A DNA stretch of 63,799 nt from a virus. Its lineage: Duplodnaviria; Caudoviricetes. The stretch spans positions 1-63,799 of the IMG/VR virus record IMGVR_UViG_3300020045_002007; one strand, given 5' to 3'. Positions 23,700 through 55,102 of the stretch are shown here, piece after piece (within the stretch, counting starts at the first letter, position 1; the number at the start of each line of letters is the position of its first letter). The notes beneath the pieces were generated by a model that made no database searches, was not told the origin of the DNA, and saw only the letters and a program-made list of their open reading frames with translations. A program made the position numbers and the translations under genes.

Positions 23700-24587
23700 T
23701 TATTTAGTCGCGGTGGTAGCCAGAGTACGTGCTCCCAAGAAGCCTTGAGCCGCTGCCGCCAACGGAGACATCTGAGCCGTCGTCGCGCCTGGATTGCTAA
23801 CTGCCGAATAGCTCGTCGTGTTCGTCGGCTGACCGCGAATAATATCAGACAGGAAGGACAGTTGCGTCTTCGGATAGTTCAGCTGATTCGTGTAATCCGT
23901 CTGAGCCAAATTCATGTTCTGTTGCTGTTGCGCTTGCTGCGTCTGCCCAACGGTTTCCAACGCGCCAGCCTGTTGCAGCCCCAGTTGCTGCGTCGTCTGA
24001 GCCAGCGACTGCTGACGTTGCAAATCCGCCAAGGCCGCGTTCTGAGCCTGCGTATATCCGGCTTGCAGCGCGGTTGATTGCTGACCTAGAATAGACTCAT
24101 TCGCATCACGAACGGCGTTGTTAGTAAAATCGGCATTCCGAGTTGAACCGAACTGACCTGCGCCGGTGAAAGTGCTGTTCACCTGAGGGAGTAGGTTTTC
24201 ACTCAAGTTACGCTGACCGAGCTGAGCGATGCGATTGACTACGGAGTCCGTATACGGGCTCATGTACGAGCCGACGGCCTGAGGTAGCGTCTGGCTGGCG
24301 AGATTCAAAGCGGGTTGGTAATTACCCTGGCTATTGACGATCTGTTGCTGAGCCTGTTGCTGAGCCGGAGTGAAACCCGCAATACGTCCGGCATCTTGAC
24401 CATAGGTTTCCGCGTTAGTCGGAGCCGTGTAAGGCTGATACGCTTCTCCCGCTACTGCCGTAGCCTGGCCGGCAAGCCCACGGGTATATTCCTGAAGCCA
24501 TGCGGGGAGTTGCGCGCCCGTATCGGTCAGAGTGCCCGTTACCGAAGCGGGTGTCGTGTTGCCGAACAGGTAGGAATTATCAGCCAT
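23700..24587 (-). CDS. putative internal virion (pilot/ejection) protein
   Basis: Q-rich; YMSPYTDSV, GAGQFGSTR, YPKTQLSFL motifs. Confidence 0.65.
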   Translation of the reverse strand: MADNSYLFGNTTPASVTGTLTDTGAQLPAWLQEYTRGLAGQATAVAGEAYQPYTAPTNAETYGQDAGRIAGFTPAQQQAQQQIVNSQGNYQPALNLASQTLPQAVGSYMSPYTDSVVNRIAQLGQRNLSENLLPQVNSTFTGAGQFGSTRNADFTNNAVRDANESILGQQSTALQAGYTQAQNAALADLQRQQSLAQTTQQLGLQQAGALETVGQTQQAQQQQNMNLAQTDYTNQLNYPKTQLSFLSDIIRGQPTNTTSYSAVSNPGATTAQMSPLAAAAQGFLGARTLATTATK

Positions 24588-25705
24588 TATTTTGCTCCCT
24601 TAGTCTTCATATACTCAAGTGGGGATTTAGCCTTGGGAGGAATCTTGTTCTTAGGGGCTGACCGTTTGTGCGTACGTACTTTCTCGCGCATCTGGTCTAG
24701 AACCGCCGCGCCTGCGTCATTATTACCGTCCCCGAGCGCCGAGACGACGTCCGCGTCCATCACGTATTCGCCGTCTGACACCTTTGCATTGACGGTGTCT
24801 GCTTGACCCGACGCGCCACCTCTAACGTACCCGAGAGCGCCACCTTCGCAGAAGCCGAGGAAGTTCTTTTTCTTGGCAGGCTGCAACCGCTTAAGAGCAT
24901 TCGCGAGAGCCTCCGCTTCAAGCCTTGCGGTCTCAGCAGCATAGGCGTCAGCTTCAGAACCTCTTGACGGAGCACGTTCAGTCGCGGAAACCTGAGGCGC
25001 GTCTTCCGATTCACGCAACATTTTTTCAATATCCCGACCCTGCGCGTATTTACGTAGGTTACTCAAACCTCCAGTACTGCCGCCTTCAGCGAAATACGAG
25101 GGGAGTTGATTATTGGTGAAGAAGGCTGATTCACCGCGTCTTGCGGTCGGGGTTGCCGCTGTACGCGGGTTAGCCAGTCGAAGAGGTGCGTTGTAAACAC
25201 TTGCCGCCGCTTGCCGAGCCGCTAGCTCTTCAGCTTGTTTCCGCTGGGCTTCTTTCAGCAGTTTGTTTTGCTTCATAGCGCCGAGTGCTGAAATTCCCGC
25301 GCCGCCTAGTCCGGCCAGGAGCTTACCGCCAGGAGACCCCATGAAAGAGCCAGCTTGCTGGAGATAGCTATTAGCCTGATCGAGGTAGCTAGGCTCGGAT
25401 ATGGGAGAGCTGGTATAGCTACTCGGATTACCGATACCCAGCCCTTGATATCCGCCTTGATCATACATCGACGTGTCCTGAAAACTCGGGATTTCGTCGT
25501 ACGCGGAGGCCGGGTTCCAAGAGCTTTCTCCGAACGCTTGCACCGGATTCCAGTCCGTATTATCGAACATCGAATATGCTGAATCCCCCAGCGAAGAAAA
25601 GTCCGTGTAAGCCTGGACTGGCGACCAATTATCCGTAGCCGTCTCCCATATGTCTACGGGGTCGTAATCAAAGTTCATTCCAGACAAATCGAAATCTTCA
25701 AACAT
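24587..25705 (-). CDS. putative internal virion protein with C-terminal (S)DGE.V domain
   Basis: FAEGG/FCEGG motifs; GQADTVNAKVSDGEYVMDADVVSALGDG...AGA..LDQMRE. Confidence 0.65.
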   Translation of the reverse strand: MFEDFDLSGMNFDYDPVDIWETATDNWSPVQAYTDFSSLGDSAYSMFDNTDWNPVQAFGESSWNPASAYDEIPSFQDTSMYDQGGYQGLGIGNPSSYTSSPISEPSYLDQANSYLQQAGSFMGSPGGKLLAGLGGAGISALGAMKQNKLLKEAQRKQAEELAARQAAASVYNAPLRLANPRTAATPTARRGESAFFTNNQLPSYFAEGGSTGGLSNLRKYAQGRDIEKMLRESEDAPQVSATERAPSRGSEADAYAAETARLEAEALANALKRLQPAKKKNFLGFCEGGALGYVRGGASGQADTVNAKVSDGEYVMDADVVSALGDGNNDAGAAVLDQMREKVRTHKRSAPKNKIPPKAKSPLEYMKTKGAK

Positions 25706-25715
25706 AATATACTCC

Positions 25716-27260
25716 TTAGGACCTGTTGTCGCCGGGTTCGGTATGAATTATAACCTTTCCAGCCTCATAAAACCCGTTTAGCACATTGCTTTCAAATTTT
25801 AAAAGTATGTGCCGCCGCTGTTCCCGCATGTCTACCTTACCCGTTGAAGACGTAAACGTATACGACGTTATGGGTTCCATAGGCGCTTGTGCAAATTCAT
25901 AGCCGATTACCGACACCGTCATATCCCCGGTCTGAATAAAATCAGGCTCAACTCGCGTAAGCCGTGTCCATTTACTAACGCCCTGAGGGCTATCACCGAC
26001 GCCGCCCGTAGGATAGCCGAAGTTCTGCGTGGTGAAATAGCTCTCAATCGCGTTTTCATTATCCCCGAGAACGGCGTTGTACCCAAACTCGTGTTGATAC
26101 AATCCGTACTTACCCGAGGGCTCTTTTTCTGAACCCGCCCAGACCGGATACTGAACAATTTGTGAGTAGAAACCCGCAGCCCGAGAGATAGAATTATCGT
26201 ACCACGTTTTCAATCTCGTATTGAACACGATTGTCGCATTACATTCCGTCGAATCCCCGCGAGGATAATGCCAAATGATCTCCCCGAAGCGAGGTATCTT
26301 AGTCGCCCAGATCTTCTGGCGTTGAGCATAATTCAGGTTATCAAAGAACCAGTTTTGATTCAAATCATTTTGCAACTCTTTTACCGAGCTGTCGAAATAC
26401 AAAAACCTATCCACGCCTATCCAAAAATAGATACCGTCATATTCAATGACGCTGTTCTGCGCGAGGATACTCGATTGAGTAGAGAGGGTAGAGAAGCGCC
26501 AGATAGCTTGACCACCGACGTAATCCATGCGAATGACTGAATCAAGCGACCAGAGGATAGCTGCCGTTTGCCCGGCTCGCAGTGGGAGACCCGCGACGAT
26601 CTTAGCGCCGGTTACTCTGTCCGCACCCGCGTCGCCGGGGATAGTACTCGTGCTCCACACTTGCGGTTGATTAGCGTCCGACCAAGCGACCAAACCGTCT
26701 GAACCGTAGGCAATCGTATACGGAGCTACTGAAAATACGCCGCCCGACACTGCCGGAGCGTCCGTGATCGTCGCAAATACGGAGGTAGCCGAGTTAGCCA
26801 TCGCCCAGTAAGGCTTAGTGGCCCGATCGTCGTCAATACTCCGCAAAGCCTGATTGCAATGCGCCACGATGATCGTACCCTGCGTTCCTACCGCTTCATC
26901 ATACTGGGTATCAGCGGTCCAGAGGTTGTCCACGTCATCTACAAAACCTACGGGGGTTCGGTCGTGAATATCATTCCCGACGACGTTGTTATCAACTAGG
27001 AGCGTTTCGATATTGGCTTGAGAAAAACAGAGGCATGAGTTCAGGTCTTTACGTGACCAGAGAAGGAACTTACGTATCGGTCCGGACAGCTGATCGGTTA
27101 CGCGGCGATACCCGCCCATCTTTTTGGCCTTACCGCGCTGAAACCGAACCCATTGGCCGTCGGAGCAATACTCGCCTTCCAATAGGGTTCCGTCGCGCTT
27201 GATGCCGGGTTGAGGCAGCAGCGTGAATACCATTTCATCCGCGTTTTGATTATCAGCCAT
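25716..27260 (-). CDS. tail tubular/hub (nozzle) protein, beta-propeller, podovirus type
   Basis: PGIKRDGT...DGQWVRFQRG..KKMGG; beta-rich; position after tail fibre. Confidence 0.7.
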   Translation of the reverse strand: MADNQNADEMVFTLLPQPGIKRDGTLLEGEYCSDGQWVRFQRGKAKKMGGYRRVTDQLSGPIRKFLLWSRKDLNSCLCFSQANIETLLVDNNVVGNDIHDRTPVGFVDDVDNLWTADTQYDEAVGTQGTIIVAHCNQALRSIDDDRATKPYWAMANSATSVFATITDAPAVSGGVFSVAPYTIAYGSDGLVAWSDANQPQVWSTSTIPGDAGADRVTGAKIVAGLPLRAGQTAAILWSLDSVIRMDYVGGQAIWRFSTLSTQSSILAQNSVIEYDGIYFWIGVDRFLYFDSSVKELQNDLNQNWFFDNLNYAQRQKIWATKIPRFGEIIWHYPRGDSTECNATIVFNTRLKTWYDNSISRAAGFYSQIVQYPVWAGSEKEPSGKYGLYQHEFGYNAVLGDNENAIESYFTTQNFGYPTGGVGDSPQGVSKWTRLTRVEPDFIQTGDMTVSVIGYEFAQAPMEPITSYTFTSSTGKVDMREQRRHILLKFESNVLNGFYEAGKVIIHTEPGDNRS

Positions 27261-28519: not shown

Positions 28520-28899
28520 ATCATAATCCAGCCAAAAGAGGTCGCCTTGAATCGTAAAGAGGTGCCATAATTATAAACTCGAACTTCAGACGAATCTAAT
28601 ATCAAATCTAGTCCTGAGGATTGAATGATCAGCGTATTGGGTCTAGCATTTTTCATAATCTCTATTTCACGCCCGTTACTCGCGAGCGGAAGGGAGATCG
28701 TGATACTTTTTAGAGTCGTATCAACTAATATGAAATCTTGTTGAAGCGTGACCGTAAAGTTTTCCGATACCGAAAACGCCGGAGACGCGCCCTGTAGCGA
28801 TAGAACCGAGACGTGATCCAAAACTCGATCCGCCGAGTGCCAGTGCTCAAAGCAATCCCCCGCCGAGACCAGAGAGGACTCTTGGAAAGGAGTGATCAT
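28516..28899 (-). CDS. small tail-associated protein
   Basis: ILVDTT...ITISLPLA..GREIEI motif, also seen in tail-fibre domains. Confidence 0.6.
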   Translation of the reverse strand: MITPFQESSLVSAGDCFEHWHSADRVLDHVSVLSLQGASPAFSVSENFTVTLQQDFILVDTTLKSITISLPLASNGREIEIMKNARPNTLIIQSSGLDLILDSSEVRVYNYGTSLRFKATSFGWIMI

Positions 28900-29846
28900 T
28901 ATCGCGCTCTACTCAGAGGCCCGACGGAACCGCCAGACTTCCAGCCGCTATAGCTCGTATCTGATCCAGCGTCCGTCCCCTGACTCTCATTGCTAGAGGA
29001 ACCGCCACTCCACGAACCTGAATCAAAACCTGAACCTGATCCCGTGTTCAATCCACCGTAGTCTACGACGCTGGAACCTGAATCAGACGCGCCTAGGTTG
29101 GGACCAAATCCAGTTACCCCGTACGCATCCCCGACGCTAATGCCTCCCGAGCCTGGACCCGCCGTATTGCCAATTCCTGAGCCACTATAGGTTTGGGTAG
29201 GACTATCAGGAGCTTCTGGCGACCACGACCCGTTACCCCAAAACCCACCATTATATCCCGCATCATAACGCTCGTCAATATCCGAACGCATTGTATCTCT
29301 GAAACCTTGAGCCGTATTAAGTCCGAACAGGTTGGCTAGTCCGTAAGCCATTCCAGCCATAGGATTAATCGCAGAGATAGCTTTACCGATCCCCATATTG
29401 ATCATCTTATCCGTATCAATACCGTTACCGGCTTTTTGACCGACAATGGAACCGATTGTTCCTGCGATCGGACTCGGAACACCTGCGTAATTTAAACCGA
29501 CGGACGCAGCGGCACCCAACCCGCTACTCATCCATCCGGGCAGACCATATCCTTCGGTCGCGAGCATTTCGCTATCTTCGGTAGGAGCCTGATTAAAAGT
29601 CGGGCTAGAAGTCTGCGAAGTACCCCCAATTGAGTCTTGAAAGGGGGATTGGCGTTCGGCTAAGAGCTTCGCATCAGCGAGCGCCTTGGCTTGTGCTTTA
29701 GCGTTATCCGCCGCCGTCTGGCTAAGAGGGCTGGAAGCCTCGTCGTTAGACGAATTCAGCCATGAGTTATAAAGCTGGGACTTAGAAGCCATGGGAGATG
29801 CCAAGCCGCTCCAATACGGTAAACTCCAGCTATACGGAACAGCCAT
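28899..29846 (-). CDS. Gly/Ser-rich putative internal virion protein
   Basis: Low complexity; ends WKSGGSVGPLSRAR; SD AGGAG and own -10 (29877-29882). Confidence 0.65.
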   Translation of the reverse strand: MAVPYSWSLPYWSGLASPMASKSQLYNSWLNSSNDEASSPLSQTAADNAKAQAKALADAKLLAERQSPFQDSIGGTSQTSSPTFNQAPTEDSEMLATEGYGLPGWMSSGLGAAASVGLNYAGVPSPIAGTIGSIVGQKAGNGIDTDKMINMGIGKAISAINPMAGMAYGLANLFGLNTAQGFRDTMRSDIDERYDAGYNGGFWGNGSWSPEAPDSPTQTYSGSGIGNTAGPGSGGISVGDAYGVTGFGPNLGASDSGSSVVDYGGLNTGSGSGFDSGSWSGGSSSNESQGTDAGSDTSYSGWKSGGSVGPLSRAR

Positions 29847-35876: not shown

Positions 35877-36887
35877 TCAGGTACCCGGAGTACCGAACAT
35901 TGCGCGCCAATCGGTCCAACCCGAACCGAAGCGCATCGTGCTCTTGTAGCGGACGCTGTCGGTCTCGAAGTCGCCTTCCATTGACTTCTCGATCTTGCGA
36001 CGCCACAGGGTCTTCATACCTTCCGACGCATCGGTCTGGACGAACCAGGCAGTGGCCGAGGTGAGACGGGACAGGACGACCACATCCGACAGCATACCCA
36101 TCGACTTGACGGGGTTGAGGTCGTTGTTGTTCGTACCCGCACGCAGCACACTCTTCAGCAGGACTTCGGCCTGGAGCATGTTGCCAGGCGCGACTACCAG
36201 CTTCTTCGGTGTGAGGCGAATCTTCTTACCACGCGGATCAGCCGCTTGACGAATCTGGACCATCATCTGTTCCAGCGACGTTTGCGACAGCGCTGCTGAA
36301 GTAGCCAGCAGGTTGCTAGCCGACGGATCACCAGCCGCAACGGCGAGAGCCGCAGCATGATTGTTGACGCAGAGCGCCGAACCGTCGCCGCCTTGATACG
36401 TACTAGTAAAAGCGCGGTTCAGGTGATTGGCGTGAATCGTTTCCAGCGTCTCGGTCATCGACTGAGCCAGGTGCTTGGAGAAGGTCGAGCCGATACGGAT
36501 GTGATCACCGTCTTCGACCAGCACCTTAGTCAGCGCGAAGGCCAGACCATACACTTCGTACGGATAGCGTTTCACGAACAGCTGACCACCTGCATCATAC
36601 GTAACCGGCGTGCTATCAGGAAGTGCCGGAGCCGAACCCATACCGTACAACATAGGCTCTTCATGATAAGCTCGAGCGATGCCCGGACTCTCGGTGAAGA
36701 TCTGTTTGTACTCGTCAGCGCGTTGGTCGTAGACCCCGTCGAACGCTTGATTGAGGATAGGCTCCACAATCGAACGGAAGTCGGAACTGCGCATGGGAAC
36801 AGCACAAGCGATCAGGCCCGTACGAGCCATGAACATGGTCAGGATTGCGAAGAGGCTTTCAAGGAAGCCAAAGAACATCTTTTTCAT
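35877..36887 (-). CDS. major capsid protein (HK97 fold, Mu gpT-like family) with N-terminal extension
   Basis: PMRSSDFRSIVEPILN..FDGVY, LAFALT...EDG, GDG.AL, GDFETDSVRYK...R...GWTDWR. Confidence 0.85.
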   Translation of the reverse strand: MKKMFFGFLESLFAILTMFMARTGLIACAVPMRSSDFRSIVEPILNQAFDGVYDQRADEYKQIFTESPGIARAYHEEPMLYGMGSAPALPDSTPVTYDAGGQLFVKRYPYEVYGLAFALTKVLVEDGDHIRIGSTFSKHLAQSMTETLETIHANHLNRAFTSTYQGGDGSALCVNNHAAALAVAAGDPSASNLLATSAALSQTSLEQMMVQIRQAADPRGKKIRLTPKKLVVAPGNMLQAEVLLKSVLRAGTNNNDLNPVKSMGMLSDVVVLSRLTSATAWFVQTDASEGMKTLWRRKIEKSMEGDFETDSVRYKSTMRFGSGWTDWRAMFGTPGT

Positions 36888-36897
36888 TTTCAGCCCC

Positions 36898-37467
36898 TTA
36901 GATAGAGTTGACTTCAGTCAACAGTTGGTTCTTGGCGATCTGGACACGGACGATCGTGTAGGCATCACCCCACGCGTTGTCAGCATACGGAGCCAAACCC
37001 ATGATGCGGAAGTTGCCTACCGCAGCCGCGCCCTTGAGGGTGGAGTTCATGTACGAACCCGTCACGCCTGTATTGACGTTGCCGGCAGCGATCACGATAT
37101 CAGCCGAATCGCCGATAGCCGTAACAGCCACCGCGCCACCTGCCTGAATTTCGCATTCCAGAAGCGGATCAAACGGAATAACATACCATTCAATCTGAGT
37201 CACACCCGACAGCGATGCCGGCCAGTAAGCTGAATACGTCGGCTTGCCGGTAGCGTCATTGTAGCGACAACCGTCAAAGATACCATACGCGGCGTCATTG
37301 GCGGCGATGATAGCAGCGATAGCGCCATCACCAGTAAGTTTGACCAAGTCGCCCTTGTAAACGGCGGCGCTCGGAATCGAAGTGAAACCAGACATAACGC
37401 GAGTCCGAATCGTCCCAGAGGGATGATAGACAGCGCGTACGCCCGACGGAGAAGCAAAAGTACTCAT
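36898..37467 (-). CDS. capsid decoration/minor capsid protein
   Basis: P.G.R.VYHPSG...YKGDLVKL...GIFDGC.Y.D; directly upstream of capsid gene. Confidence 0.65.
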   Translation of the reverse strand: MSTFASPSGVRAVYHPSGTIRTRVMSGFTSIPSAAVYKGDLVKLTGDGAIAAIIAANDAAYGIFDGCRYNDATGKPTYSAYWPASLSGVTQIEWYVIPFDPLLECEIQAGGAVAVTAIGDSADIVIAAGNVNTGVTGSYMNSTLKGAAAVGNFRIMGLAPYADNAWGDAYTIVRVQIAKNQLLTEVNSI

Positions 37468-37481
37468 GATCTATTCCTTTA

Positions 37482-38048
37482 CTAAATGAAGGTAGGATTG
37501 CGGGAGTTACCGCGTCCGAGATTGTTGAAGTCCCCTTCCACCTGCGAGAGTCGTCGACCTTCGCTGTCTTCATCATTCCGGGCTGAAACCTGGTCGCGAA
37601 TGGAGGCTTCTTGTTCCATCGGCATATCATGGTGATAAATCATCATCAGATCCTGGTACGTTTCGGTAGGAATCTTGAACAGCAACATCTCATTGCAGGC
37701 GATACATCCGTCAAACTCGCCGCCGGTGGCCATGAACTGGGCACCGAATGCCGGGACTTCTGATGCTTTTACCGGAGCATAACCACGCTGAATCCGCTTA
37801 TAAACCGGATCGGTACTGTTGGTCGTACTCAGCCAGCAACAATGAAAGCCTGGGAGTTTCGGGGGAGTCGGGAGAACTTCTTGTACCCAGTCTTGCCGCA
37901 AGGCGCGTCTGCGCTCTGAAGCTGTTAGGGCACTTCCATCTTGCTGAACGCGATCAACATCCGCGCTATCACGAGAGCCACGTACCGACTGGCCTGCATC
38001 CTTCTTAAGGCGGTCATCACCGAAGGTGTCTTTGATTGGATTAGCCAT
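37482..38048 (-). CDS. conserved head-module protein
   Basis: LP.PP..PGFH.CWLSTTN..D....R...GY.PV. Confidence 0.7.
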   Translation of the reverse strand: MANPIKDTFGDDRLKKDAGQSVRGSRDSADVDRVQQDGSALTASERRRALRQDWVQEVLPTPPKLPGFHCCWLSTTNSTDPVYKRIQRGYAPVKASEVPAFGAQFMATGGEFDGCIACNEMLLFKIPTETYQDLMMIYHHDMPMEQEASIRDQVSARNDEDSEGRRLSQVEGDFNNLGRGNSRNPTFI

Positions 38049-38059
38049 GTCATGTCTCC

Positions 38060-39031
38060 TTATTTGTTCGAACCGTGTGTACGGTCATATTCTTGGAATC
38101 GCCGAATGGCGTCTGCGCGTTTGGCGGGATCATCAAAAGTACCGGCATCTTTCAGAGCTTGAACTCGCTCTGCGGATAGACGGTAAGTCCCCTTGGGCGC
38201 AGCGCCCGATTCCGTTCCTGAACCGGCCACCGGAACACGAGGTTTCGAGGGCTGATTACCTGGAGTACGATTATACCCTGAAATAGCGCGGTGAGGCAAG
38301 TATTTTTTAACCCGTGAATCCAACTCCTCCCAATACTCAGAGGTCGTCGGGTTCCAGCCTTCCTGTACGAGGCGATTGTCAATCTTCATCACCAGGTCAC
38401 TATCGGCATCACTACCTGCCGGATCATACCACGAATTCTTTTCAATCCAGGCGTTGGCATTTTTCGCCATGCGCGGATCAAGAGGCTTCGGCTGCTGTTG
38501 AACCTTAGTCCCCATGTTCTTCTTGGCATTTTGCAACATGTTGAATCGGTTCTGGGCGGCGAACATCTTTTCCTGGGCGTCTACGGCTGTAGCGCCATCA
38601 GCCATCTCAATCGCCTTACGATTGATTTCCTTGAAATGCGTGTAGTAATTCGACGCTTCAGTAATGGCTGAATCGAGCTGAGCCGCCTGATTACCGACGG
38701 AATGCTGTTCCACCGAAGCGAGTCGAGTGGACAGTTCATTCAGCATCTCATCGCGAGAGGCTAGTTCACGCTTGAGGGATTCTACGTATTCCTTACGGCT
38801 GGCCTTGTTTTGAACACGGCGAGCACGGTTGCGTTCGCGGCGAGCGTCGGCTTCTTCTTGAGTTTCCTCGTCATGACCGGTTTCGTCATCATCCGAAGAC
38901 TCATTGGTGGCGACTCGTTCGTCGTCTTTGGTTTCTTCCTTCAGATCGGGTTTCGCGTCCTCGCCAATTTGGAGAGAGCCGTCATCGAGTTCCTTGACGA
39001 CCAAGTCGTCTTTCTTGTCTTCATTTTCCAT
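38060..39031 (-). CDS. capsid scaffolding protein
   Basis: Acidic N-terminus, long coiled coil, W..KN.WY, LS.ERVQA; upstream of capsid genes. Confidence 0.7.
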   Translation of the reverse strand: MENEDKKDDLVVKELDDGSLQIGEDAKPDLKEETKDDERVATNESSDDDETGHDEETQEEADARRERNRARRVQNKASRKEYVESLKRELASRDEMLNELSTRLASVEQHSVGNQAAQLDSAITEASNYYTHFKEINRKAIEMADGATAVDAQEKMFAAQNRFNMLQNAKKNMGTKVQQQPKPLDPRMAKNANAWIEKNSWYDPAGSDADSDLVMKIDNRLVQEGWNPTTSEYWEELDSRVKKYLPHRAISGYNRTPGNQPSKPRVPVAGSGTESGAAPKGTYRLSAERVQALKDAGTFDDPAKRADAIRRFQEYDRTHGSNK

Positions 39032-39051
39032 TGTGTATTCTTTCACACAAA

Positions 39052-39456
39052 TTACAGCAGTTGATCAAACGATTCGAAGTTGCTCTCCACCACCAGTTGC
39101 ACGTTCGTATCATCGAACACGGCGAAGATAGCCTTCTCTTTTTGCTCAGCAATAGGAGCCTCGAAACGGAAGCCTCCCCAGCGCGGTAGGATAACCAAGT
39201 CACCCACCTTAGCCCAAGCTCCCTCTTTCCACTCTTCACCCGAAGAACGGTCCCTAAAGGCTATTCCTCCGACTGCGACGACCAGCCCAATCTGGGTGTT
39301 ACCGTTGTTAAAGTCCTTCGTGTCTTCTACGAGGACGATACCACCTTGGGTCTTTTCTTTCAAGGTGCGAAGTTGCACCAGGATTTTCGCTCCAGCCGGT
39401 TTAGCGCCTGGGTCTACCTGGGGGAAGTGGTGCTGGATGTAATCTTTTTTATTCAA
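39052..39456 (-). CDS. groES: GroES-like co-chaperonin
   Basis: PAGAKILVQ...KTQGGIVL...GLVVAVG...KVGDLV. Confidence 0.8.
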   Translation of the reverse strand: MNKKDYIQHHFPQVDPGAKPAGAKILVQLRTLKEKTQGGIVLVEDTKDFNNGNTQIGLVVAVGGIAFRDRSSGEEWKEGAWAKVGDLVILPRWGGFRFEAPIAEQKEKAIFAVFDDTNVQLVVESNFESFDQLL

Positions 39457-39653: not shown

Positions 39654-39817
39654 TTGGTCTTCGGCTTCTTAGGTGTGGGTTTAACTTCAACCTCGTCTTC
39701 ATCAATGATAGGCTGAATGTCGGTAGACAGGTTATAACCGACAGAAAAGTGAGCGAGGCTCTTGTCGCTTTCTACAACGGTCTGCGTGCCGTCTGACGTG
39801 GTGACGAGATATTTCAT
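39650..39817 (-). CDS. 55-aa hypothetical protein (not in ORF track)
   Basis: MKYLVTTSDGTQTVVES...KPKTK; ATGA and GTGA overlaps. Confidence 0.65.
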   Translation of the reverse strand: MKYLVTTSDGTQTVVESDKSLAHFSVGYNLSTDIQPIIDEDEVEVKPTPKKPKTK

Positions 39818-39975
39818 TTGCACTTACCGCCTTTCTTCAGACCCTTTTTCTTGAATTCAGCGGCGATGAGCTTCTTGTCTTCAGCAATATCTTCATGCTT
39901 GACTTTGCCGCCATCTTTGTAAGCCTTCAAGCCGGGTTGAGCTTGGCCACCCATTACTTTAGCGAGACGTCCCAT
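39814..39975 (-). CDS. 53-aa basic protein with two xKxGG motifs (not in ORF track)
   Basis: MGRLAKVMGGQAQPGLKAYKDGGKVKHEDIAEDKKLIAAEFKKKGLKKGGKCK; SD AGGAGA. Confidence 0.75.
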   Translation of the reverse strand: MGRLAKVMGGQAQPGLKAYKDGGKVKHEDIAEDKKLIAAEFKKKGLKKGGKCK

Positions 39976-49395: not shown

Positions 49396-49405
49396 GATTA
49401 TTCTC

Positions 49406-49819: not shown

Positions 49820-50203
49820 TCAAGCTCCAAGTTTGGTTTTAACAACACGAACAATGTCCGTCCATACCGCCGTCGCTAGAAAGCCGAAGAATGCGATCAG
49901 CGCCCACGTCAGGGTAGACTGACTAACCTTTTCCATCATGCGATTACGTACGTCCTGACGCTTGATGAGGTTATCTACAAACTCTGCTCTCAATACCATC
50001 GTATCAACCCCTCCTAGATCTTTCAGGAGGAGGTCTGACTGAGCATCACGTTCATCTTCACGCTTGGCGTGTGGGATAATGACGGCGGTCAGTCGATTGA
50101 TACTGTATAGTATCAGGCGATCAATCTCTCGGCGGTCACCTTTGAGGTAGAGTTCAATCTCCTCTTCGGTGAGGACGTGGGGAGGGGTTTCTTGTACGGG
50201 CAT
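49820..50203 (-). CDS. C-terminally anchored membrane protein (holin/antiholin candidate)
   Basis: TM segment LTWALIAFFGFLATAVW; upstream of endolysin. Confidence 0.55.
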   Translation of the reverse strand: MPVQETPPHVLTEEEIELYLKGDRREIDRLILYSINRLTAVIIPHAKREDERDAQSDLLLKDLGGVDTMVLRAEFVDNLIKRQDVRNRMMEKVSQSTLTWALIAFFGFLATAVWTDIVRVVKTKLGA

Positions 50204-50208: not shown

Positions 50209-52926
50209 TTACTCGGCAATGATTTGAACTTTACGCATCCCTACCGTCTTGCCGGTGGCTGGGTCTCTAATTAGTTCGGTAGGCGCATTCATATGTTGCA
50301 TAACAGCCCTTAGACCGTCGACGGTGGCGGTTAGAGCGTCCCCGGTCTTGGCCTTCTCAAGCTGACCTAACATATCTTGCATCTGCTTCATCATAGGGCT
50401 GAAATCGGGGGCTTCTGGCGTTTGCGCCGGGATAGCCGCAACTTGATTTTGCAACTCCAACATCTTGAGTTGGAGAGCCGTTTCATTGTCGTCACGGTTC
50501 TTCATCAACTCGGTCATCTGGTGTTGCTTATTGTCCGCCTCATTCTTGATGAGTTCAATCTGTTGATTCATCTGGTCAGCTTGCTGTTTGGCCTTCAGCT
50601 CGAGGGTCTGGGACTGCATCGCGAACTGATTCTTCAGCGCTTCCAACATCGGAGCCGTCTGGCTCTCCTGCTGTTTCATCTGTTGGTCAAACTGCATCTC
50701 TTGCATCTTGCGGGCCTGTTCAGCCTGATCGACTTGCGTCTTGCGTTGAATCTCGGCCATCGCCGCTTCAAAGGTCTTCTGAATCGCAGGATCAAGTTGA
50801 GGCGGCGGTTGCTTACTCTGCACGATCTTAGCCGCTTCCTGAAGGATCGGTAATAGACCTTGAATGGTTTGCGAGTTCGCTTCCTGAGCCTTCATAGACG
50901 CCATGAGCGCCATCTGGTCCGGACTCATGTTCTGGCCTTGCGATTCAATCATCACTACCATCTGAGCCGACTGAGCCGCGAAGCCATAGTCGAGGATGAA
51001 GTGATCATTGATATGAGTCATGAGTGCGGCGAGTTTCTGTCCGTCTACCTGACCTTGAGCAATCATAGGCTGTAGGATGAACATCAGGTGACACTTGATA
51101 TGTGCAAGGTGATCTTGAGGCTCGACCGCCTTCAGCATCTTCCCTTGCATGATAGAGATGTTCTCGGTGACCGGATCGGCCGTGACGAGTTCATCGGGTT
51201 TCGGTAGGAACTCATCAATACCTTCTACGCGTAGCAGTTCCAGCATACGCCGACGCATAGCGACCTTGTTCCAGGGCACTGAAGGATCTTGTACGTCCGT
51301 GGAAGCCAACTGCATCACGCTCTGCATTTGAGCAAAGCGTTGGGTCTCGCTGAAGATGTTGGGATCGGATACGGGAGCGATGTCGCTACTGTCCAGGAAG
51401 TCCTCAGGCACGAGGTCGAACTTACCGAGGTCAGCTAGCGCGTGTTCCGGGTAGTCCGCAATCAAGCGACAGATGATCTTCAGAGCCTTGCGCTGAGCGT
51501 CGTGCAATCGTGCGTGAATACTAGAGAAGACCTGAGAGCCTTGCTCTATCAGCGCGAGCGCCGTACCGACTGGCATGTTGGCGCCAGCGTCCGCGATACG
51601 CTCTTCTGCGGTAGCGACCACGCCCTTAGCCTGGGCCGTGATCCAATCTAGCAGCTGGAACAGGACCGCAGATGGCGGATTGAACGGAACGGGCATCATT
51701 ACCTTACGGATGTCGTCCGTACCGGCTGGCGCTTCAATCTCCGTTACCGCCGTCATGTCTAGCGTGACGTTCTGACCAGAGGACCGACCACCCTTCAGCT
51801 TGATAGCCGTGGGTGCGTTGTTGATGTGGGCTGAGTCTAGCAGGGCGCGAAGAGCGCCGGTGAGCGCGGCCGCAAGGCCACCGATCAAATGTGGGAAGCC
51901 GATACCATAAGCCCCGCGCCACGGAATGAACTTGTCTTCTACCCACCAGTCCAGACGCTCTTTGCTCTCATCGCTTTCTTTCCAGTTGCGATAAATAGCA
52001 CAGATCTTGCCTGAAGGTTCGTCAATGTGGATGACGTAAGGGGCGATGCCGTCGCCTTCGGCGTCCCAGTTACACGTGACTTCGTAAATGATACGGCAAC
52101 CGTCTTCATTGTAGCCCGAATCGGTCTTGCCTTCGATCTTGTCGGTGGCCTTCTGGGAAGCCGTTTCCTCTACGTTTTGCTCGGACTGTCCGAAGACGTC
52201 GGAGTAGAAGCCGTTGGCGACGTACTCATCAATCTTCTCTTCCGTCAGGTCTTTTTCGTGAGTGATACGGTTAGACGCGTAGAAAGAGTTGGCGGAGAAC
52301 GGCAAGTAGACCTTGTCTACCGGCACGAATTCCATCCGGATACGACGACCATCAAACCAATACTTCTCGTACTGCGAGCCGCCGAGAGGGAGTTGGGTGA
52401 GGAGCGTTTCTTTCTCGGAGCGATACTCAGGCATGCGCTCTACGAGGTAAAAGTTCAGGAAGTCTCTCTTCTTACGGGCCTTGTCTAGCTTCAGTGAAGT
52501 CGCTTCGCCTTGGATCTTGGTACGGACTGGGCCGTTACTCGGGAACAGTTCCTTGATAGCCCTGGCGGAGAAGTCTACGCAGCCTTCAGCGAGTACAGGG
52601 TGAACGACCTTGGCCGCTCCATCAAACGTCGCACCGCCCGGAGCATCGTCGCCCAGACCCGTACGCCGTATACCCTCTTCCTGTTGTTTGTCGCGCTCAG
52701 TGCGAGCTTCCTTGTCCTTCTCAATCAAGTCCAAGAGCGCCGTGGCGATCGTGTTCAGCTCGAAGGTGTCGAGTGATTCAGCCAGGTTGGAATAGAAGTC
52801 GGTGTCTTCCAAAGTATCGGTGTCAGCGTATTCGATTATCGCGCTGCCGTCTTCCAATTCGGTGACTTCCCCCATGAGTTCGGTAGAGGGTGTCGGTTGG
52901 TCGAGGGTTTCGTCGGACTTAGGCAT
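50209..52926 (-). CDS. portal protein with long C-terminal coiled-coil barrel
   Basis: FYSNLAE, F.GA..VVHPVLAE, F.P..G.YG.G..HLIGGL, MPVGT.LAL.E.G..V.S.IHARLH; Q-rich tail. Confidence 0.85.
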   Translation of the reverse strand: MPKSDETLDQPTPSTELMGEVTELEDGSAIIEYADTDTLEDTDFYSNLAESLDTFELNTIATALLDLIEKDKEARTERDKQQEEGIRRTGLGDDAPGGATFDGAAKVVHPVLAEGCVDFSARAIKELFPSNGPVRTKIQGEATSLKLDKARKKRDFLNFYLVERMPEYRSEKETLLTQLPLGGSQYEKYWFDGRRIRMEFVPVDKVYLPFSANSFYASNRITHEKDLTEEKIDEYVANGFYSDVFGQSEQNVEETASQKATDKIEGKTDSGYNEDGCRIIYEVTCNWDAEGDGIAPYVIHIDEPSGKICAIYRNWKESDESKERLDWWVEDKFIPWRGAYGIGFPHLIGGLAAALTGALRALLDSAHINNAPTAIKLKGGRSSGQNVTLDMTAVTEIEAPAGTDDIRKVMMPVPFNPPSAVLFQLLDWITAQAKGVVATAEERIADAGANMPVGTALALIEQGSQVFSSIHARLHDAQRKALKIICRLIADYPEHALADLGKFDLVPEDFLDSSDIAPVSDPNIFSETQRFAQMQSVMQLASTDVQDPSVPWNKVAMRRRMLELLRVEGIDEFLPKPDELVTADPVTENISIMQGKMLKAVEPQDHLAHIKCHLMFILQPMIAQGQVDGQKLAALMTHINDHFILDYGFAAQSAQMVVMIESQGQNMSPDQMALMASMKAQEANSQTIQGLLPILQEAAKIVQSKQPPPQLDPAIQKTFEAAMAEIQRKTQVDQAEQARKMQEMQFDQQMKQQESQTAPMLEALKNQFAMQSQTLELKAKQQADQMNQQIELIKNEADNKQHQMTELMKNRDDNETALQLKMLELQNQVAAIPAQTPEAPDFSPMMKQMQDMLGQLEKAKTGDALTATVDGLRAVMQHMNAPTELIRDPATGKTVGMRKVQIIAE

Positions 52927-52927
52927 A

Positions 52928-55102
52928 TCAGTTTCCCGATTGAATTGCACGAATTATAGCGGATAAATCAGCGACCGTTTCAATTTTATTTGGGCGAACG
53001 CTCCCACCGGATGCAAACTCTTGATTGTTCGTCCAGTCAAACGGGGTGTTTTCGTAAGTGTCTAACTCTTCCTTAGTAATCCAGTCTCCGGTCTTAGGAT
53101 GCTTAGCTAACCCTGTATTCTGCAAGTCACCCACGTCAGACCACTTACCTGACTTCACGAAGTCTTGAACCATCGGCAGGTATTCAGGGTTAGGAGCGCG
53201 GTTTTGCTTACCTTTGATTTGGACGATGGAAGGAGACTTACTATTCACTTCAGCTAGGAAGTCCTTAGCGTTCTGTCTTTGGGTATTTCCTGGGTGATTC
53301 GCGGCAACCCATTGCAAATATTCCATAGGATCTTTTTCATCCCCCACCTCGCTATACATCCTCGCTTCCGTGGGTGTATTTATACCCACTAGATCATCAA
53401 GACGATCGATTTGATCCGGCATTGAGATGCCAGAAGGTTTAACTTCCACCGTCACATGAGGTTGTCCCTTCGCATCCCTCAGCGAGTAGATACGCGAGCG
53501 TCCGCTAGCTACATCATCGCAATAGCCTCCCACGCAGTGGCCCATCGTGTCGCCTTCGTATTTGAGGGCGTCTTGGAGGGCTTGATCTCTAGACTTCATC
53601 CGACCCATCGCTTCTTCGGGAGCCATAGACGTTAGGTCTTGAGTTTCATCCGGTGAGCGCAACTCCACCCACTTCATTCCCTGCTCCGGATACTCTTTGT
53701 GCATCACGGTCGCCGCGTTGTTAGCCTTCGCCGCATCCGCTTCAGCCTTCATAGCTGACCGCCAAGCGTTGATAGCCGACACGCGCTCTACTGCCTGAGG
53801 AACCGACACCTTGTCCAACCGGTCGGCGGGGAATTGCAGATGGCGAGGGAGGCCTGATTCAGGATTGATAGAGTTAGAGAGTTCGTCTATGAGGTGATTG
53901 AAGCCGAGGTCGGCATTAAGTGAATCCAGCTCATGAACAATAGCGTTATCGTGGACTCGCTCCATATTCATCAAGCTTGACTTAGGCATAAGCGCGTAAG
54001 GGCTACGAGCGTATTCCATAGTCATGGGTTTTATCCCCGTATCGGTGATATCTTCCCAATCTTGGGCTAGCGGCGACTTACCCATACGCTGACCGACAGC
54101 ACCGTTAGTCAAATCAGCAGCTAAGCCTCTATCAACTGACGCATCTGGAACCCTGCCGGGTGTATAATGCAATACTCCTCGCTCAGCCAACGCTCGGATA
54201 GGATCTTCCGGAGTTGCCATATCATTGCGTACGTAGCGAGTGAGGGCTTTGTCTATCCAGCTGTTGATGGAAGCGGCTCTATCATGTAGAGGTATAACAG
54301 GGTTTCCCATCGGTCCAGCATGTTGTTTCAACCCCTTCAACGCTCCCTCTACCGAGCCTTCCAGCCAGTTACCACCCTTGTTCTTGATCACTCCTCCGAT
54401 CATAGCAAGTGGTGACAGTCCTTTCGCCAACATAGCGAGCTTAGTCGGTATCCCGGAACCTATCAGGTCGTCAGGGCTGATCATAGGAGCTTCAAGTGCA
54501 GGCTCAACTTCGTATTCAGGTTGCCAACGCTCGCCGCCGGACTTACTCATCACGGAGGCTTTACGAGCCGCTTCGGCTTGTCGCTGAGGTTGGGTTTCCA
54601 TGTAGCGAGTGAGTACGCCGGTGCGGGGTGTAGTGTTCACGGTGCCTCCTGAGGCGAAGTTGTCCTTAGCCCATCGCAGAGCTTTCTGATCACGTTCTTT
54701 TTGGGATAGCTGACGTCCGAGTTCTTTGTCGGCATTCGCGGCGAACACTCCAGCGACGTTTTCATCATAGTCGGCTTGAGCGTCCGCTTCCAGATTAGGG
54801 TCGAACGTCGTCATGTAATCAGCGAGTTGATAGGCTCGCGCCATATCGACCGCGTCTTTGAGTGGAACATCGCGAGCGCCGAAGTCATAGCCGCCTCCAT
54901 AGTTCAAGGCTCTATCAATTTCGTTACGATTTACTCTAGGGAGTTGAAGCTGTTGACGGAACCGCTTGAGAGCGCCTTCTGGATACTTTCCATGCGCTCC
55001 ACTTGCATCCCAATGCTTGAATTGAAGTCCCGCTCCACGTAGTAATGTGCCGAACTTATCAAGAAGCGGTAATTCAGCGAGGGGGAGAGGTTTGTCAGAC
55101 AT
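52928..55102 (-). CDS. multidomain (polyvalent-type) protein with PcfJ-like domain and two FASGG motifs
   Basis: EGDTMGHCVGGY...IYSLRD..G.PHVTVEV...QIKGKQN. Confidence 0.65.
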   Translation of the reverse strand: MSDKPLPLAELPLLDKFGTLLRGAGLQFKHWDASGAHGKYPEGALKRFRQQLQLPRVNRNEIDRALNYGGGYDFGARDVPLKDAVDMARAYQLADYMTTFDPNLEADAQADYDENVAGVFAANADKELGRQLSQKERDQKALRWAKDNFASGGTVNTTPRTGVLTRYMETQPQRQAEAARKASVMSKSGGERWQPEYEVEPALEAPMISPDDLIGSGIPTKLAMLAKGLSPLAMIGGVIKNKGGNWLEGSVEGALKGLKQHAGPMGNPVIPLHDRAASINSWIDKALTRYVRNDMATPEDPIRALAERGVLHYTPGRVPDASVDRGLAADLTNGAVGQRMGKSPLAQDWEDITDTGIKPMTMEYARSPYALMPKSSLMNMERVHDNAIVHELDSLNADLGFNHLIDELSNSINPESGLPRHLQFPADRLDKVSVPQAVERVSAINAWRSAMKAEADAAKANNAATVMHKEYPEQGMKWVELRSPDETQDLTSMAPEEAMGRMKSRDQALQDALKYEGDTMGHCVGGYCDDVASGRSRIYSLRDAKGQPHVTVEVKPSGISMPDQIDRLDDLVGINTPTEARMYSEVGDEKDPMEYLQWVAANHPGNTQRQNAKDFLAEVNSKSPSIVQIKGKQNRAPNPEYLPMVQDFVKSGKWSDVGDLQNTGLAKHPKTGDWITKEELDTYENTPFDWTNNQEFASGGSVRPNKIETVADLSAIIRAIQSGN

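What the first reader, a model, noticed from the sequence alone, without database searches (positions are those of the whole stretch)
24587..55102. Recurrent [F/Y/W/L]-[A/K/C]-x-G-G motif in four virion-arm proteins: possible maturation/packaging signal with a candidate cognate domain
Seen: FAEGG, FCEGG and the variant YVRGG in 24587-25705; WKSGG near the C-terminus of 28899-29846; YKDGG and LKKGG in the unannotated 53-aa ORF 39814-39975; FASGG twice (54644-54658 and 53003-53017) bracketing the main body of 52928-55102. No canonical prohead protease is recognisable. From memory, siphovirus tape-measure proteins such as lambda gpH carry FATGG followed by a GE.V motif near their C-terminal processing site, and 24587-25705 ends in a similar xxGG...VSDGEYV domain. 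Inference: the motif tags cargo for capsid loading and/or cleavage, and the SDGE.V domain may be its reader or protease. I know of no verified function for this in podovirus-like phages.
Basis: partly seen in the sequence, partly recalled or inferred. Interest (0 to 1): 0.7.

Follow-up and report, generated by a model that had tools for sequence, protein, structure and literature searches.

The report
Gly-Gly tag on phage virion proteins
A short peptide (bulky residue, Ala/Lys, any, Gly, Gly, any, Val) really does recur in unrelated head and ejection proteins of this short-tailed phage and its relatives, probably marking where they are cut or docked, but that function is untested.

Summary
All eight pentapeptides are at the stated coordinates.

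For three of the four proteins the motif is conserved well beyond chance:
- 115 of 120 homologues of the PcfJ-like protein carry it. That is 185 copies against 20 of the reversed motif, and 97 of 120 have a copy in the last 60 residues.
- 107 of 120 homologues of the tape-measure-like protein carry it, 241 copies against 6 reversed.
- Both copies in the 53-aa ORF are kept across its family.
- WKSGG in 28899-29846 is kept in only 1 of 16 homologues.

In three related genomes the refined motif occurs 14 times in the virion arm and 0 times elsewhere. The copies lie in predicted disordered linkers at module borders.

The idea that the GEYV domain reads or cuts the motif gets no support. Phage T5's tape measure is cut immediately before an A-x-G-G. 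However, profile searches do not show homology between this module and the T5 or lambda proteins.

My best reading, at about 40%, is a processing junction cut by an unidentified, perhaps host, protease. The main rival is an uncut docking tag. Earlier notes of this scan report the same motif on other phage DNA. My paper searches found no description of it.

The parts
24587..25705 (-). Tape-measure-like ejection protein, 372 aa. It carries three tag copies: FAEGG 25079-25093, FCEGG 24839-24853 and YVRGG 24815-24829.
   Evidence: One search gives the coordinates. Residues 284-328 match phrog_6090 'tail length tape measure protein' at E=8e-4. There are 980 homologues of the C-terminal 98 aa. Of the best 120, 107 have [FYWLM]AxGG, and 86 have a tag within 45 aa upstream of the GE/D-aromatic-V anchor. 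A206, G208 and G289 are at least 90% conserved in alignment A1.
24590..24820 (-). C-terminal GEYV module of that protein, residues about 296-372.
   Evidence: It is conserved in the G001 orthologue (54% identity over 76 aa) and in the DSL-LC04 'tape measure protein' (39.7 bits to the module profile). In the AlphaFold2 model pLDDT is 78-87 across model residues about 121-160, which are coil plus helices 129-135 and 140-160. The tag copies have pLDDT about 50.
52928..55102 (-). PcfJ-like protein, 724 aa, lying between the large terminase and the portal. Tag copies: FASGG 54644-54658 (residue 149) and 53003-53017 (residue 696).
   Evidence: Pfam PcfJ at E=4e-9, 36.9 bits against a cut-off of 25. 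115 of 120 homologues are tagged and 97 of 120 have a tag in the last 60 aa. An upstream copy is present in 41 of 49 homologues with a long N-terminal extension but in only 2 of 45 with a short one.
53081..53755 (-). Core of the PcfJ-like protein with a GNAT-like fold, residues about 450-674.
   Evidence: AlphaFold2 model with pLDDT 85.7 and pTM 0.75. VIA-align found 43 chains with Z of 5 or more, almost all GNAT acetyltransferases; the best is Hat1 at Z 7.2, rmsd 3.0, 104 residues aligned. Foldseek against the PDB gave nothing at E<=0.001.
52940..52975 (-). C-terminal amphipathic helix after the last tag, residues about 710-721.
   Evidence: Helix 486-497 of the model follows a stretch with pLDDT below 50 (model residues 470-481) that holds the tag. 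The helix is conserved in homologue tails.
39814..39975 (-). Small basic protein, 53 aa, with two tag copies: YKDGG 39907-39921 and LKKGG 39826-39840.
   Evidence: There are 14 cluster representatives among 1.84 billion proteins. The invariant columns are G23, D33, G49 and G50. G001 has an orthologue. DSL-LC04 has two tagged small proteins directly after its portal gene.
28899..29846 (-). Gly/Ser-rich 315-aa protein with WKSGG at 28929-28943. Whether it belongs to the tagged set is doubtful.
   Evidence: Of its 16 homologues, only P0242 keeps W-x-x-GG-x-V followed by the same C-terminal residues; 11 of the 16 end in GGW instead.
50209..52950 (-). Portal protein, 913 aa. It is context and a candidate docking partner.
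   Evidence: phrog_1216 portal at E=4.9e-15. It is 48% identical to the G001 portal.
35877..39456 (-). Head-assembly block: GroES-like gene 39052-39456, coiled-coil scaffold-like gene 38060-39046, two unknown genes, and the major capsid gene 35877-36887. No protease is recognisable in it.
   Evidence: Cpn10 at E=4.2e-8 and Phage_capsid_4 at E=8.6e-13. No protease family appears at E<=5. The same gene order is described for viral GroES contigs in PMC5649160 (passages).

Best explanation
The motif (Gly/Asn)-(Phe/Tyr/Met/Leu/Trp)-(Ala/Lys)-x-Gly-Gly-x-(Val/Ile/Ala) is a conserved short linear motif. It sits in disordered linkers at the borders between modules of proteins that this podophage clade encodes in its head and ejection gene block.

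These proteins are most likely packed in the capsid and expelled with the DNA. That is inferred from gene position and family, not shown.

The most likely mechanism is a processing junction. During particle assembly an endopeptidase that the window does not recognisably encode (a host enzyme or an unrecognised phage protein) cuts at the tag, probably between the bulky residue and the Ala, as in T5 pb2. The cut would separate the working part from an anchoring or targeting piece. The working parts would be the GNAT-like PcfJ core, the body of the tape-measure-like protein, and basic peptides. The anchoring pieces would be the C-terminal helix, the GEYV module and the N-terminal extensions.

Shown: the motif exists, is conserved, lies at junctions and is restricted to virion-block proteins. 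Inferred: packaging, cleavage, the position of the cut and the identity of the enzyme.
For: Conservation:
- PcfJ-like family: 115 of 120 homologues tagged; 185 forward copies against 20 reversed; shuffle mean 15.1, maximum 26.
- Tape-measure-like family: 107 of 120 tagged; 241 forward against 6 reversed; shuffle mean 10.1.
- Small basic protein family: the Gly-Gly columns are among its only four invariant columns.

Junction position:
- The upstream PcfJ copy goes with a long N-terminal extension (41 of 49 against 2 of 45).
- Only 6 copies lie between the core start and the last 60 residues, in the 94 proteins where the core start could be located.
- The tags fall in stretches with pLDDT below about 50 in both models.

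Restriction to virion genes:
- The refined motif occurs 14 times in 35,233 virion-arm residues and 0 times in 25,444 other residues over three genomes (Fisher P=5e-4).
- Around 79 related viral loci, same-strand neighbours of the PcfJ-like gene hold 78 forward copies against 3 reversed. Opposite-strand ORFs hold 0 against 3.

Arrays: basic proteins downstream of the portal in relatives carry up to 11 bracketed copies of [FYWLM][AK]xGG in about 260-345 aa. This fits chopping into peptides or multivalent binding.

Precedent for cutting:
- T5 pb2 is cut after R1127 (PMC10038345, passage). That bond immediately precedes one of only two A-x-G-G in its 1219 residues.
- Lambda gpH loses about 14 kDa from its glycine-rich region, which holds five A-x-G-G. 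Both the site and the catalyst are unknown (PMC12617516, passages).
- Phage 80alpha capsid and scaffold proteins are cut between Phe and Ala by a host protease, at a motif also found on non-homologous virion proteins of other phages (PMC5744158, passages).
Against: - No cleavage has been observed for any protein of this clade, and no protease is recognisable in the window.
- The link to T5 and lambda rests on motif resemblance only. A profile of the window's module scores lambda gpH at 3.3 bits, below the shuffled maximum of 9.0, and gives no hit in T5 pb2. T5 also has Arg, not a bulky hydrophobic residue, before the Ala.
- Conservation lies mainly on what would be the prime side of the cut (A-x-G-G-x-V), which is unusual for protease sites (the judgement is mine).
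The tag system is therefore clade-specific.
- The homologue counts come from related sequences and are not independent events. The refined motif was defined after seeing these genomes.
Confidence: 0.4

Rival explanations
1. Uncut docking tag. The peptide binds a repeated site inside the procapsid (coat protein inner face, scaffold or portal) and so loads cargo. This would work like encapsulin cargo-loading peptides, the T4 capsid targeting sequence or the P1 DarB localisation signal. Proteins with many copies would bind multivalently.
For: - The tags lie at termini or in exposed linkers.
- Several non-homologous proteins of the head block share the tag.
- Relatives have arrays of up to 11 bracketed copies of the five-residue core in basic proteins.
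- Conservation of seven positions, including residues after the Gly-Gly, fits a binding epitope.
- Capsid localisation signals are known in P1 and T4 (PMC9024508, passages).
Against: - No partner has been identified, and the complex prediction could not be run.
- Internal copies at module junctions, and the link between the upstream copy and N-terminal extensions, are not needed for simple loading.
- A similar pentapeptide occurs in tape measures of long-tailed phages, which are not capsid cargo.
Confidence: 0.3
2. Passive hinge. The Gly-Gly turn is a flexible joint that lets multi-module proteins unfold and thread through the portal and tail channel, with no specific recognition.
For: The tags lie in disordered linkers between modules. 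They occur in proteins expected to pass through the channel, as judged from gene neighbourhood with the phrog_4287 'DNA ejection protein'.
Against: A hinge would not need an invariant Ala, an aromatic residue before it, or Val (93%) two residues after the Gly-Gly. It also would not produce a 9- to 40-fold excess over the reversed motif.
Confidence: 0.15
3. One reading: the C-terminal GEYV module of 24587-25705 is the cognate reader or protease of the tag.
For: The module always follows tag copies in cis: 86 of 120 homologues have one within 45 aa upstream. In DSL-LC04 and other relatives the strand before GE-aromatic-V resembles, by eye, the nucleophile hairpin of Ser-Lys peptidases. That resemblance is recalled, not tested against those families.
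Against: - The invariant columns of A1 are A, G, E, V, G, G, G, L, R, R, K, R and similar, with no Ser, Cys or His. The would-be Ser position is Thr in the window, Val in G001 and Asp in many homologues.
- The model shows coil plus helices, not an enzyme fold.
- GB2A has the module without tags on other proteins.
- The module profile finds nothing in PcfJ tails beyond shuffles: best 6.2 bits against 3.7.
Confidence: 0.07
4. Chaperonin-loop mimic. The tag imitates the GroES mobile loop and recruits host GroEL to these proteins. The phage also encodes a GroES-like protein whose loop reads KTQGGIVL.
For: - A GroES-like gene sits in the same head block.
- Some tags read GG-(I/L)-V.
[quoted passage not shown] I saw only this title in reference lists. 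PMC5649160 cites the paper among reports of phage dependence on host chaperonins (passage).
Against: The loop signature is a Gly followed by three small hydrophobic residues (PMC5649160, passage). In the tags the first residue after Gly-Gly is Leu 31%, Ser 29% or Pro 14%, and the third is polar.
Confidence: 0.03

Closest known systems
C-terminal glycine-rich region of siphophage tape measure proteins: T5 pb2 (matured to pb2* and pb2C) and lambda gpH (gpH* and gpHC)
   Same: Both carry an A-x-G-G pentapeptide followed within about 20 residues by GE-x-V/EVV: lambda FATGG 733 ... GEFV 754 ... YATGG 778, and T5 AEGG 1128. T5 is cut exactly before the Ala (PMC10038345, passage). The distal piece stays anchored in the particle.
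   Different: Homology is not demonstrable: lambda scores 3.3 bits, below the shuffled maximum of 9.0, and T5 gives no hit. T5 has Arg before the Ala. Those proteins lie in a tail tube, whereas this phage is short-tailed and also puts the tag on non-tape-measure proteins.
Host protease Prp sites on Staphylococcus phage 80alpha capsid and scaffolding proteins
   Same: A short shared motif on non-homologous virion proteins is cut between Phe and Ala by an enzyme the phage does not encode (PMC5744158, passages).
   Different: The Prp motif is N-terminal and defined by residues before the cut. Prp and the L27 extension are described for Firmicutes (search listing abstracts). Here the conserved residues follow the putative cut, and the known host of a relative is a gammaproteobacterium.
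Capsid targeting or localisation signals: the T4 capsid targeting sequence and the P1 DarB N-terminal signal
   Same: Short terminal peptides that load unrelated cargo into phage heads. In T4 the signal is removed by the prohead protease (PMC9024508, passages and its reference titles).
   Different: Those signals are N-terminal, single-copy and phage-specific. Here the tag is internal or C-terminal and often repeated, and no prohead protease is recognisable.
Gly-Gly maturation sites of adenovirus core proteins, and similar sites in African swine fever virus polyproteins.
   Same: A short hydrophobic-x-Gly-Gly type site occurs on basic core proteins and several other virion proteins, which are processed inside the particle.
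   Different: The spacing differs by one residue and the cut there follows the Gly-Gly. Those viruses encode the cysteine protease; none is found here.
Polyvalent or MuF-type capsid-carried effector proteins of phages. Known to me from earlier notes of this scan and from recall of Iyer et al. 2017, which I did not read.
   Same: An enzyme-fold protein (here GNAT-like) is encoded beside the portal gene, with variable N-terminal extensions.
   Different: No MuF domain was detected. The family is PcfJ-like, and its borders carry the Gly-Gly tag.

Membership tests
Tape measure C-terminal module (lambda gpH / T5 pb2C type) | A-x-G-G pentapeptide upstream of a GE-aromatic-V element | tested here: met
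   The window has FCEGG and YVRGG followed by GEYV. Lambda has FATGG followed by GEFV. T5 has AEGG followed by GEHGTEVV. The comparison is by eye.
Tape measure C-terminal module (lambda gpH / T5 pb2C type) | Statistically supported sequence similarity to lambda gpH or T5 pb2 | tested here: not met
   A profile built from 181 module segments scores lambda at 3.3 bits (shuffled maximum 9.0) and gives no hit in T5. The same profile scores GB2A at 64.3 bits and the DSL-LC04 'tape measure protein' at 39.7 bits.
Tape measure C-terminal module (lambda gpH / T5 pb2C type) | Similarity to proteins annotated as tape measure | tested here: inconclusive
   phrog_6090 at E=8e-4. Mycobacteriophage Douge tape measure 8zdo_S at E=0.24, two stretches. 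In that structure only residues 1658-1699 are resolved.
Tape measure C-terminal module (lambda gpH / T5 pb2C type) | Proteolytic cut at the motif during assembly | not testable with these tools
   This needs virion mass spectrometry.
PcfJ-like (Pfam PF14284) | Match above Pfam's gathering score | tested here: met
   36.9 bits against a cut-off of 25, E=4e-9, residues 512-558. The BFVD fold search returns PcfJ-like phage proteins at E down to 3e-33.
GNAT acetyltransferase fold | Structural match of the core domain | tested here: inconclusive
   VIA-align best Z is 7.2, under the tool's caution line of 8, but almost all of the 50 listed rows are GNATs. Foldseek gives nothing at E<=0.001.
GNAT acetyltransferase fold | Acetyl-CoA binding loop and catalytic residues | not tested
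   The invariant His-Cys-Val-Gly-x-Tyr-Cys stretch was not mapped onto a GNAT structure.
Prohead-protease maturation system (T4 gp21 / HK97 type) | A recognisable prohead protease gene in the head block | tested here: not met
   No protease family appears in PHROGs or Pfam for the 48 minus-strand proteins, for 11 proteins at E<=5, or for 35 further proteins of the window's other ORFs (34 on the + strand and the minus-strand ORF 93-1274). The capsid protein matches only the capsid part of fused protease-capsid PHROGs.
Ser-Lys dyad peptidases (signal peptidase / LexA type), considered for the GEYV module | Invariant nucleophile Ser and general-base Lys | tested here: not met
   No invariant Ser in A1. 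The candidate position varies: Thr, Val, Asp or Ser.
GroES mobile-loop mimic | Gly followed by three small hydrophobic residues | tested here: not met
   The logo of 97 C-terminal PcfJ tags shows Leu/Ser/Pro at +1, Val 93% at +2 and polar residues at +3. The criterion is taken from PMC5649160.
Cargo-loading or capsid-targeting peptide | Binds the shell, scaffold or portal and is needed for packaging | not testable with these tools
It needs pull-downs or reporter packaging.

The most novel reading that the evidence does not exclude
This clade of uncultured aquatic podophages uses one Gly-Gly 'zip code' for a particle-internal maturation system. Basic core proteins would be chopped into peptides, and injected enzymes and ejection proteins released from their anchors, by a protease that is not recognisably encoded and may be a host enzyme.

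The same code would be what cuts the tape measures of T5 and lambda. That would answer the old question of where and how gpH and pb2 are processed.
Probability: 0.2. Interest if true: 0.85.

Novelty: new variant of a known kind. Interest (0 to 1): 0.62.

Why it matters
Shared targeting or cleavage peptides are known for only a few model phages. Here one seven-residue motif marks at least three unrelated protein families in a large, uncultured and environmentally common phage group: about 2180 PcfJ-like and 980 module homologues were found.

If the tag is a cut or docking site, three things follow:
- It gives a sequence rule for predicting which proteins are packed and injected.
- It gives a handle for loading foreign cargo into such capsids.
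- It gives a concrete, testable candidate for the unmapped cleavage site of lambda gpH. Both the catalyst and the site are stated to be unknown in PMC12617516.

Tried and rejected
- **Close relatives.** Megablast of 24587-32891 against phage records found no match.
- **Solved structures.** Sequence search of the PDB with the module gave only a weak hit to the Douge tape measure (E=0.24). The matching parts are not resolved in that structure.
- **Fold of the module.** The AlphaFold2 model was low-confidence (pLDDT 66) and gave no fold to search.
- **Fold of the PcfJ-like core.** Foldseek against the PDB gave nothing at E<=0.001.
- **PcfJ-like protein as a self-flanked protease.** Rejected, because the fold search points to GNAT, not a peptidase.
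- **Homology to lambda and T5.** The profile test was not significant.
- **Degenerate module in PcfJ tails.** The same profile gave no signal beyond shuffles.
- **DNA-level repeat.** Rejected, because all five codons differ between the two FASGG copies.
- **FMATGG in 37482-38048.** Not conserved: G001 has Ser-Gly, and the DSL-LC04 sequence is unrelated at that point. I treat it as chance.
- **YKTGG in 2135-2392.** Not followed up; I treat it as chance.
- **The 188-aa protein in the usual protease slot.** No Pfam hit at E<=5. The protein atlas returns only unnamed viral clusters. Its His-Cys pair is not kept in DSL-LC04.
- **GroES-loop mimicry and Ser-Lys peptidase likeness.** Both were considered; their defining residues are not met.
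- **Complex prediction.** The job pairing the GEYV module with the PcfJ C-terminal tail was never accepted. The queue was full or in its waiting time, and the tool was declared unavailable.
- **Paper searches that found no description of the motif:**
  - 'PcfJ, phage, portal'.
  - 'tape measure protein, C-terminal, conserved motif, ejection proteins, podovir'.
  - 'tape measure protein, proteolytic processing, cleavage site, virion, mass spectrometry'.
  - 'AxGG, phage'.
  - Subscription journals are not covered by these searches.
- **Earlier notes.** A place look-up and a sequence look-up found none for this genome or this protein.

Full report
**What the window is**

The 63,799-base window is a complete virus record. 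Minus-strand genes from about 20.2 to 58.2 kb form the particle block:
- a small-terminase-like gene and the large terminase (55480-57048);
- a PcfJ-like protein (52928-55102) and the portal (50209-52950);
- a fibre and lysis insert;
- small basic ORFs, a GroES-like gene (39052-39456) and a coiled-coil scaffold-like gene;
- the major capsid protein (35877-36887);
- SU10-type adaptor, DUF7338 and GP4 gp80-like tail parts;
- four ejection-type genes (20206-25705).

No protease family is found anywhere in the window.

Two relatives could be read in full. One is an uncultured 62.8-kb record (G001) whose structural proteins are 30-74% identical to the window's. The other is phage DSL-LC04, whose structural proteins are 26-39% identical.

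**The observation**

In the window alone the excess is modest. One of the eight hits lies in the replication arm.

The flanks suggest a longer consensus, with Val two residues after the Gly-Gly: FASGGSV, FASGGTV, WKSGGSV, YKDGGKV. The two FASGG copies differ at the third base of all five codons, so selection acts on the protein and not on a DNA repeat.

**Conservation, protein by protein**

1. *PcfJ-like protein (52928-55102).*
   - Of the best 120 of 2180 homologues, 115 carry [FYWLM]AxGG. There are 185 copies against 20 of the reversed motif; shuffles give a mean of 15.1 and a maximum of 26.
   - 97 of 120 have a copy in the last 60 residues.
   - The logo of the C-terminal copies is Gly/Asn, Phe 70%/Tyr 26%, Ala 100%, x, Gly, Gly, Leu/Ser/Pro, Val 93%. 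A conserved amphipathic helix follows.
   - The core start could be located in 94 proteins. An upstream copy is present in 41 of the 49 with a long N-terminal extension and in 2 of the 45 with a short one. Only 6 copies lie between the core start and the last 60 residues.
   - G001 keeps the C-terminal copy (FANGGLV). DSL-LC04 has three copies at its N-terminus instead.
2. *Tape-measure-like protein (24587-25705).*
   - Its C-terminal 98 residues have 980 homologues.
   - Of the best 120, 107 carry the motif (241 copies against 6 reversed; shuffle mean 10.1). 86 have a copy within 45 residues upstream of the GE/D-aromatic-V anchor.
3. *The 53-aa ORF.* This is a real gene.
   - It has 14 cluster representatives of 42-73 aa.
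   - The Gly-Gly columns make up three of its four invariant columns.
   - 12 of 15 sequences keep the first copy and 14 of 15 the second. G001 has an orthologue.
4. *28899-29846.* Only 1 of 16 homologues keeps the motif, and 11 of 16 end in GGW instead. In a Gly/Ser-rich protein I cannot tell this copy from chance.

**Restriction to particle genes**

- Over the three genomes the refined motif [FYWLM][AK]xGGx[VIA] occurs 14 times in 35,233 virion-arm residues and 0 times in 25,444 other residues (Fisher P=5e-4). The refined motif was defined after seeing these genomes.
- In DSL-LC04 alone it occurs 8 times against 0.95 expected; 0 of 500 shuffles reach 8. G001 alone is not significant (2 against 0.58, P=0.11).
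- Around 79 further viral loci holding a PcfJ-like gene (1.13 Mb), the counts are:
  - 71 PcfJ-like genes: 137 forward copies against 3 reversed;
  - 891 other same-strand ORFs: 78 against 3;
  - 494 opposite-strand ORFs: 0 against 3.
  Some of these loci are near-duplicates, so the counts are not independent.
- The neighbour hits fall mainly into three groups:
  - basic, Lys/Gly/Met-rich proteins about 7 kb downstream, after the portal, with 2 to 11 bracketed copies of [FYWLM][AK]xGG;
  - proteins directly after the PcfJ-like gene, tagged at both ends;
  - proteins about 3 kb upstream with a copy about 20 residues from the end.

**A negative result**

Caulobacter phage GB2A carries the GEYV module (64 bits) but has no PcfJ-like gene. 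The multi-protein tag is a feature of this clade, not of every phage with the module.

**Structure**

- The tape-measure-like C-terminus (residues 190-372, 50-sequence alignment) folds with pLDDT 66. The tags fall in stretches with pLDDT about 50, and the GEYV region is coil plus two helices.
- The PcfJ-like residues 225-724 fold well (pLDDT 85.7, pTM 0.75). The C-terminal tag lies in a stretch with pLDDT below 50, and a terminal helix follows.
- The PcfJ-like core resembles GNAT acetyltransferases. Hat1 scores Z 7.2, 43 chains reach Z of 5 or more, and nearly all listed rows are GNATs. Z stays under the tool's caution line of 8, and Foldseek finds nothing at E<=0.001.
- The protein therefore looks like an enzyme cargo rather than a protease.

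**Comparison with tape measures of long-tailed phages**

This lies downstream of the Pfam Tape_meas_lam_C region at 627-701.
I checked it. The paper states that pb2 is cut after R1127 (PMC10038345, passage). In the T5 record that bond precedes AEGG, one of only two A-x-G-G in 1219 residues. Placed at random, a cut would fall there 2 times in 1218.
- Lambda gpH loses about 14 kDa from its glycine-rich region. The site and the catalyst are stated to be unknown (PMC12617516, passages). A fragment starting at Ala734 would be 12.5 kDa, and there are further A-x-G-G at 707, 711 and 718.
- Against a true relationship:
  - A profile of the window's module does not detect lambda (3.3 bits, shuffled maximum 9.0) or T5.
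  - T5 has Arg where the clade has an aromatic residue.
- I therefore treat the parallel as a working analogy, not as shown homology.

**Mechanism**

I favour a processing junction, at about 40%. The points in its favour are:
- the tags sit at module borders in disordered linkers;
- the upstream copy appears when an extra N-terminal module is present;
- arrays occur in basic proteins;
- the only precisely mapped tape-measure cut falls on a matching peptide.

Since no protease is recognisable, a host enzyme is plausible. Staphylococcus phage 80alpha offers a precedent: host Prp cuts its capsid and scaffold proteins between Phe and Ala, at a motif that other phages carry on non-homologous virion proteins (PMC5744158, passages).

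The main rival is an uncut docking tag, at about 30%. It explains the seven-position conservation, most of it after the putative cut, and the multivalent arrays at least as well.

The planned complex prediction of the GEYV module with the PcfJ tail could not be run.

**Novelty**

Earlier notes of this scan describe the same Gly-Gly junction tag on other phage DNA.

- the PcfJ-like family as a major carrier of the tag;
- the multi-copy basic proteins;
- the virion-arm test;
- the GNAT-like fold of the cargo;
- two negative results, for GB2A and for homology to T5 and lambda.

Four paper searches found no published description of the motif. Subscription journals and supplements were not covered.

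Noticed in passing
window 3496-8186 (+): A thymidine hypermodification cassette. It comprises a dCTP deaminase-like gene (3496-4059), amino acid:DNA transferase PF18724 (4056-5045), a 5-hmdU DNA kinase in two parts (5055-6531), a thymidylate-synthase-like gene (7200-8186) and an HD nucleotidase (8466-8966). The phage DNA is probably hypermodified.
   Followed up: no
window 53081-53755 (-), within 52928-55102: The conserved core of the PcfJ-like protein has a GNAT acetyltransferase-like fold (VIA-align Z up to 7.2, nearly all listed rows GNATs). It holds an invariant His-Cys-Val-Gly-x-Tyr-Cys stretch. PcfJ (PF14284) had no fold or function assigned in any output I saw.
   Followed up: partly
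L088 20384-21418; L064 12624-13451; L037 10808-11731; L090 12340-13125; L094 20034-20873: In related viral contigs, the slot after the portal holds basic Lys/Gly/Met-rich proteins of 260-345 aa. They carry up to 11 bracketed copies of the five-residue core [FYWLM][AK]xGG, and many start with the same MGQFKPMVKM stretch.
   Followed up: partly
L024 734-2023; L028 8740-9630; L038 1328-2020; L048 1708-2511; L091 5211-6065; L082 3577-4410; L070 2296-2850: Proteins about 3 kb upstream of the PcfJ-like gene in relatives carry one tag copy about 10-20 residues from their C-terminus. The window's protein in that position (57286-58215) has none.
   Followed up: no
window 38060-39456 (-): A GroES-like gene with a typical mobile loop is followed by an acidic coiled-coil protein and the capsid gene. 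This is the arrangement of GroES, 'kinesin-like' protein and head protein reported for marine viral contigs in PMC5649160.
   Followed up: partly
window 37482-38048 (-): A conserved 188-aa protein of unknown family sits where many phages encode a prohead protease. It has no Pfam hit at E<=5 and only unnamed viral clusters in the protein atlas. Its His-Cys pair is not kept in DSL-LC04.
   Followed up: partly
window 28899-29846 (-) and homologues P0243-P0256: 11 of 16 homologues of this Gly/Ser-rich protein end exactly in Gly-Gly-Trp. The window's protein and its closest relative end differently.
   Followed up: no
window 40533-50203 (-): Compared with DSL-LC04, where the small tagged proteins follow the portal directly, the window has about 10 kb inserted between them. 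The insert holds a GP4 gp80-like fibre protein (43954-44394), large unknown proteins and an Rz-like spanin (48528-48983).
   Followed up: no
window 13710-14360 (+) and 62774-63553 (-): Two homing-endonuclease-like genes: a NUMOD3 motif at E=2.4e-4, and phrog_314 at E=7.9e-12.
   Followed up: no
window 20206-22077 (-): The last ejection-block protein (623 aa) has a weak, sub-threshold match to a lysozyme-like domain (Pesticin C-terminal, E=0.011, 16.1 bits against a cut-off of 25.8). It may be the wall-degrading ejection protein.
   Followed up: no
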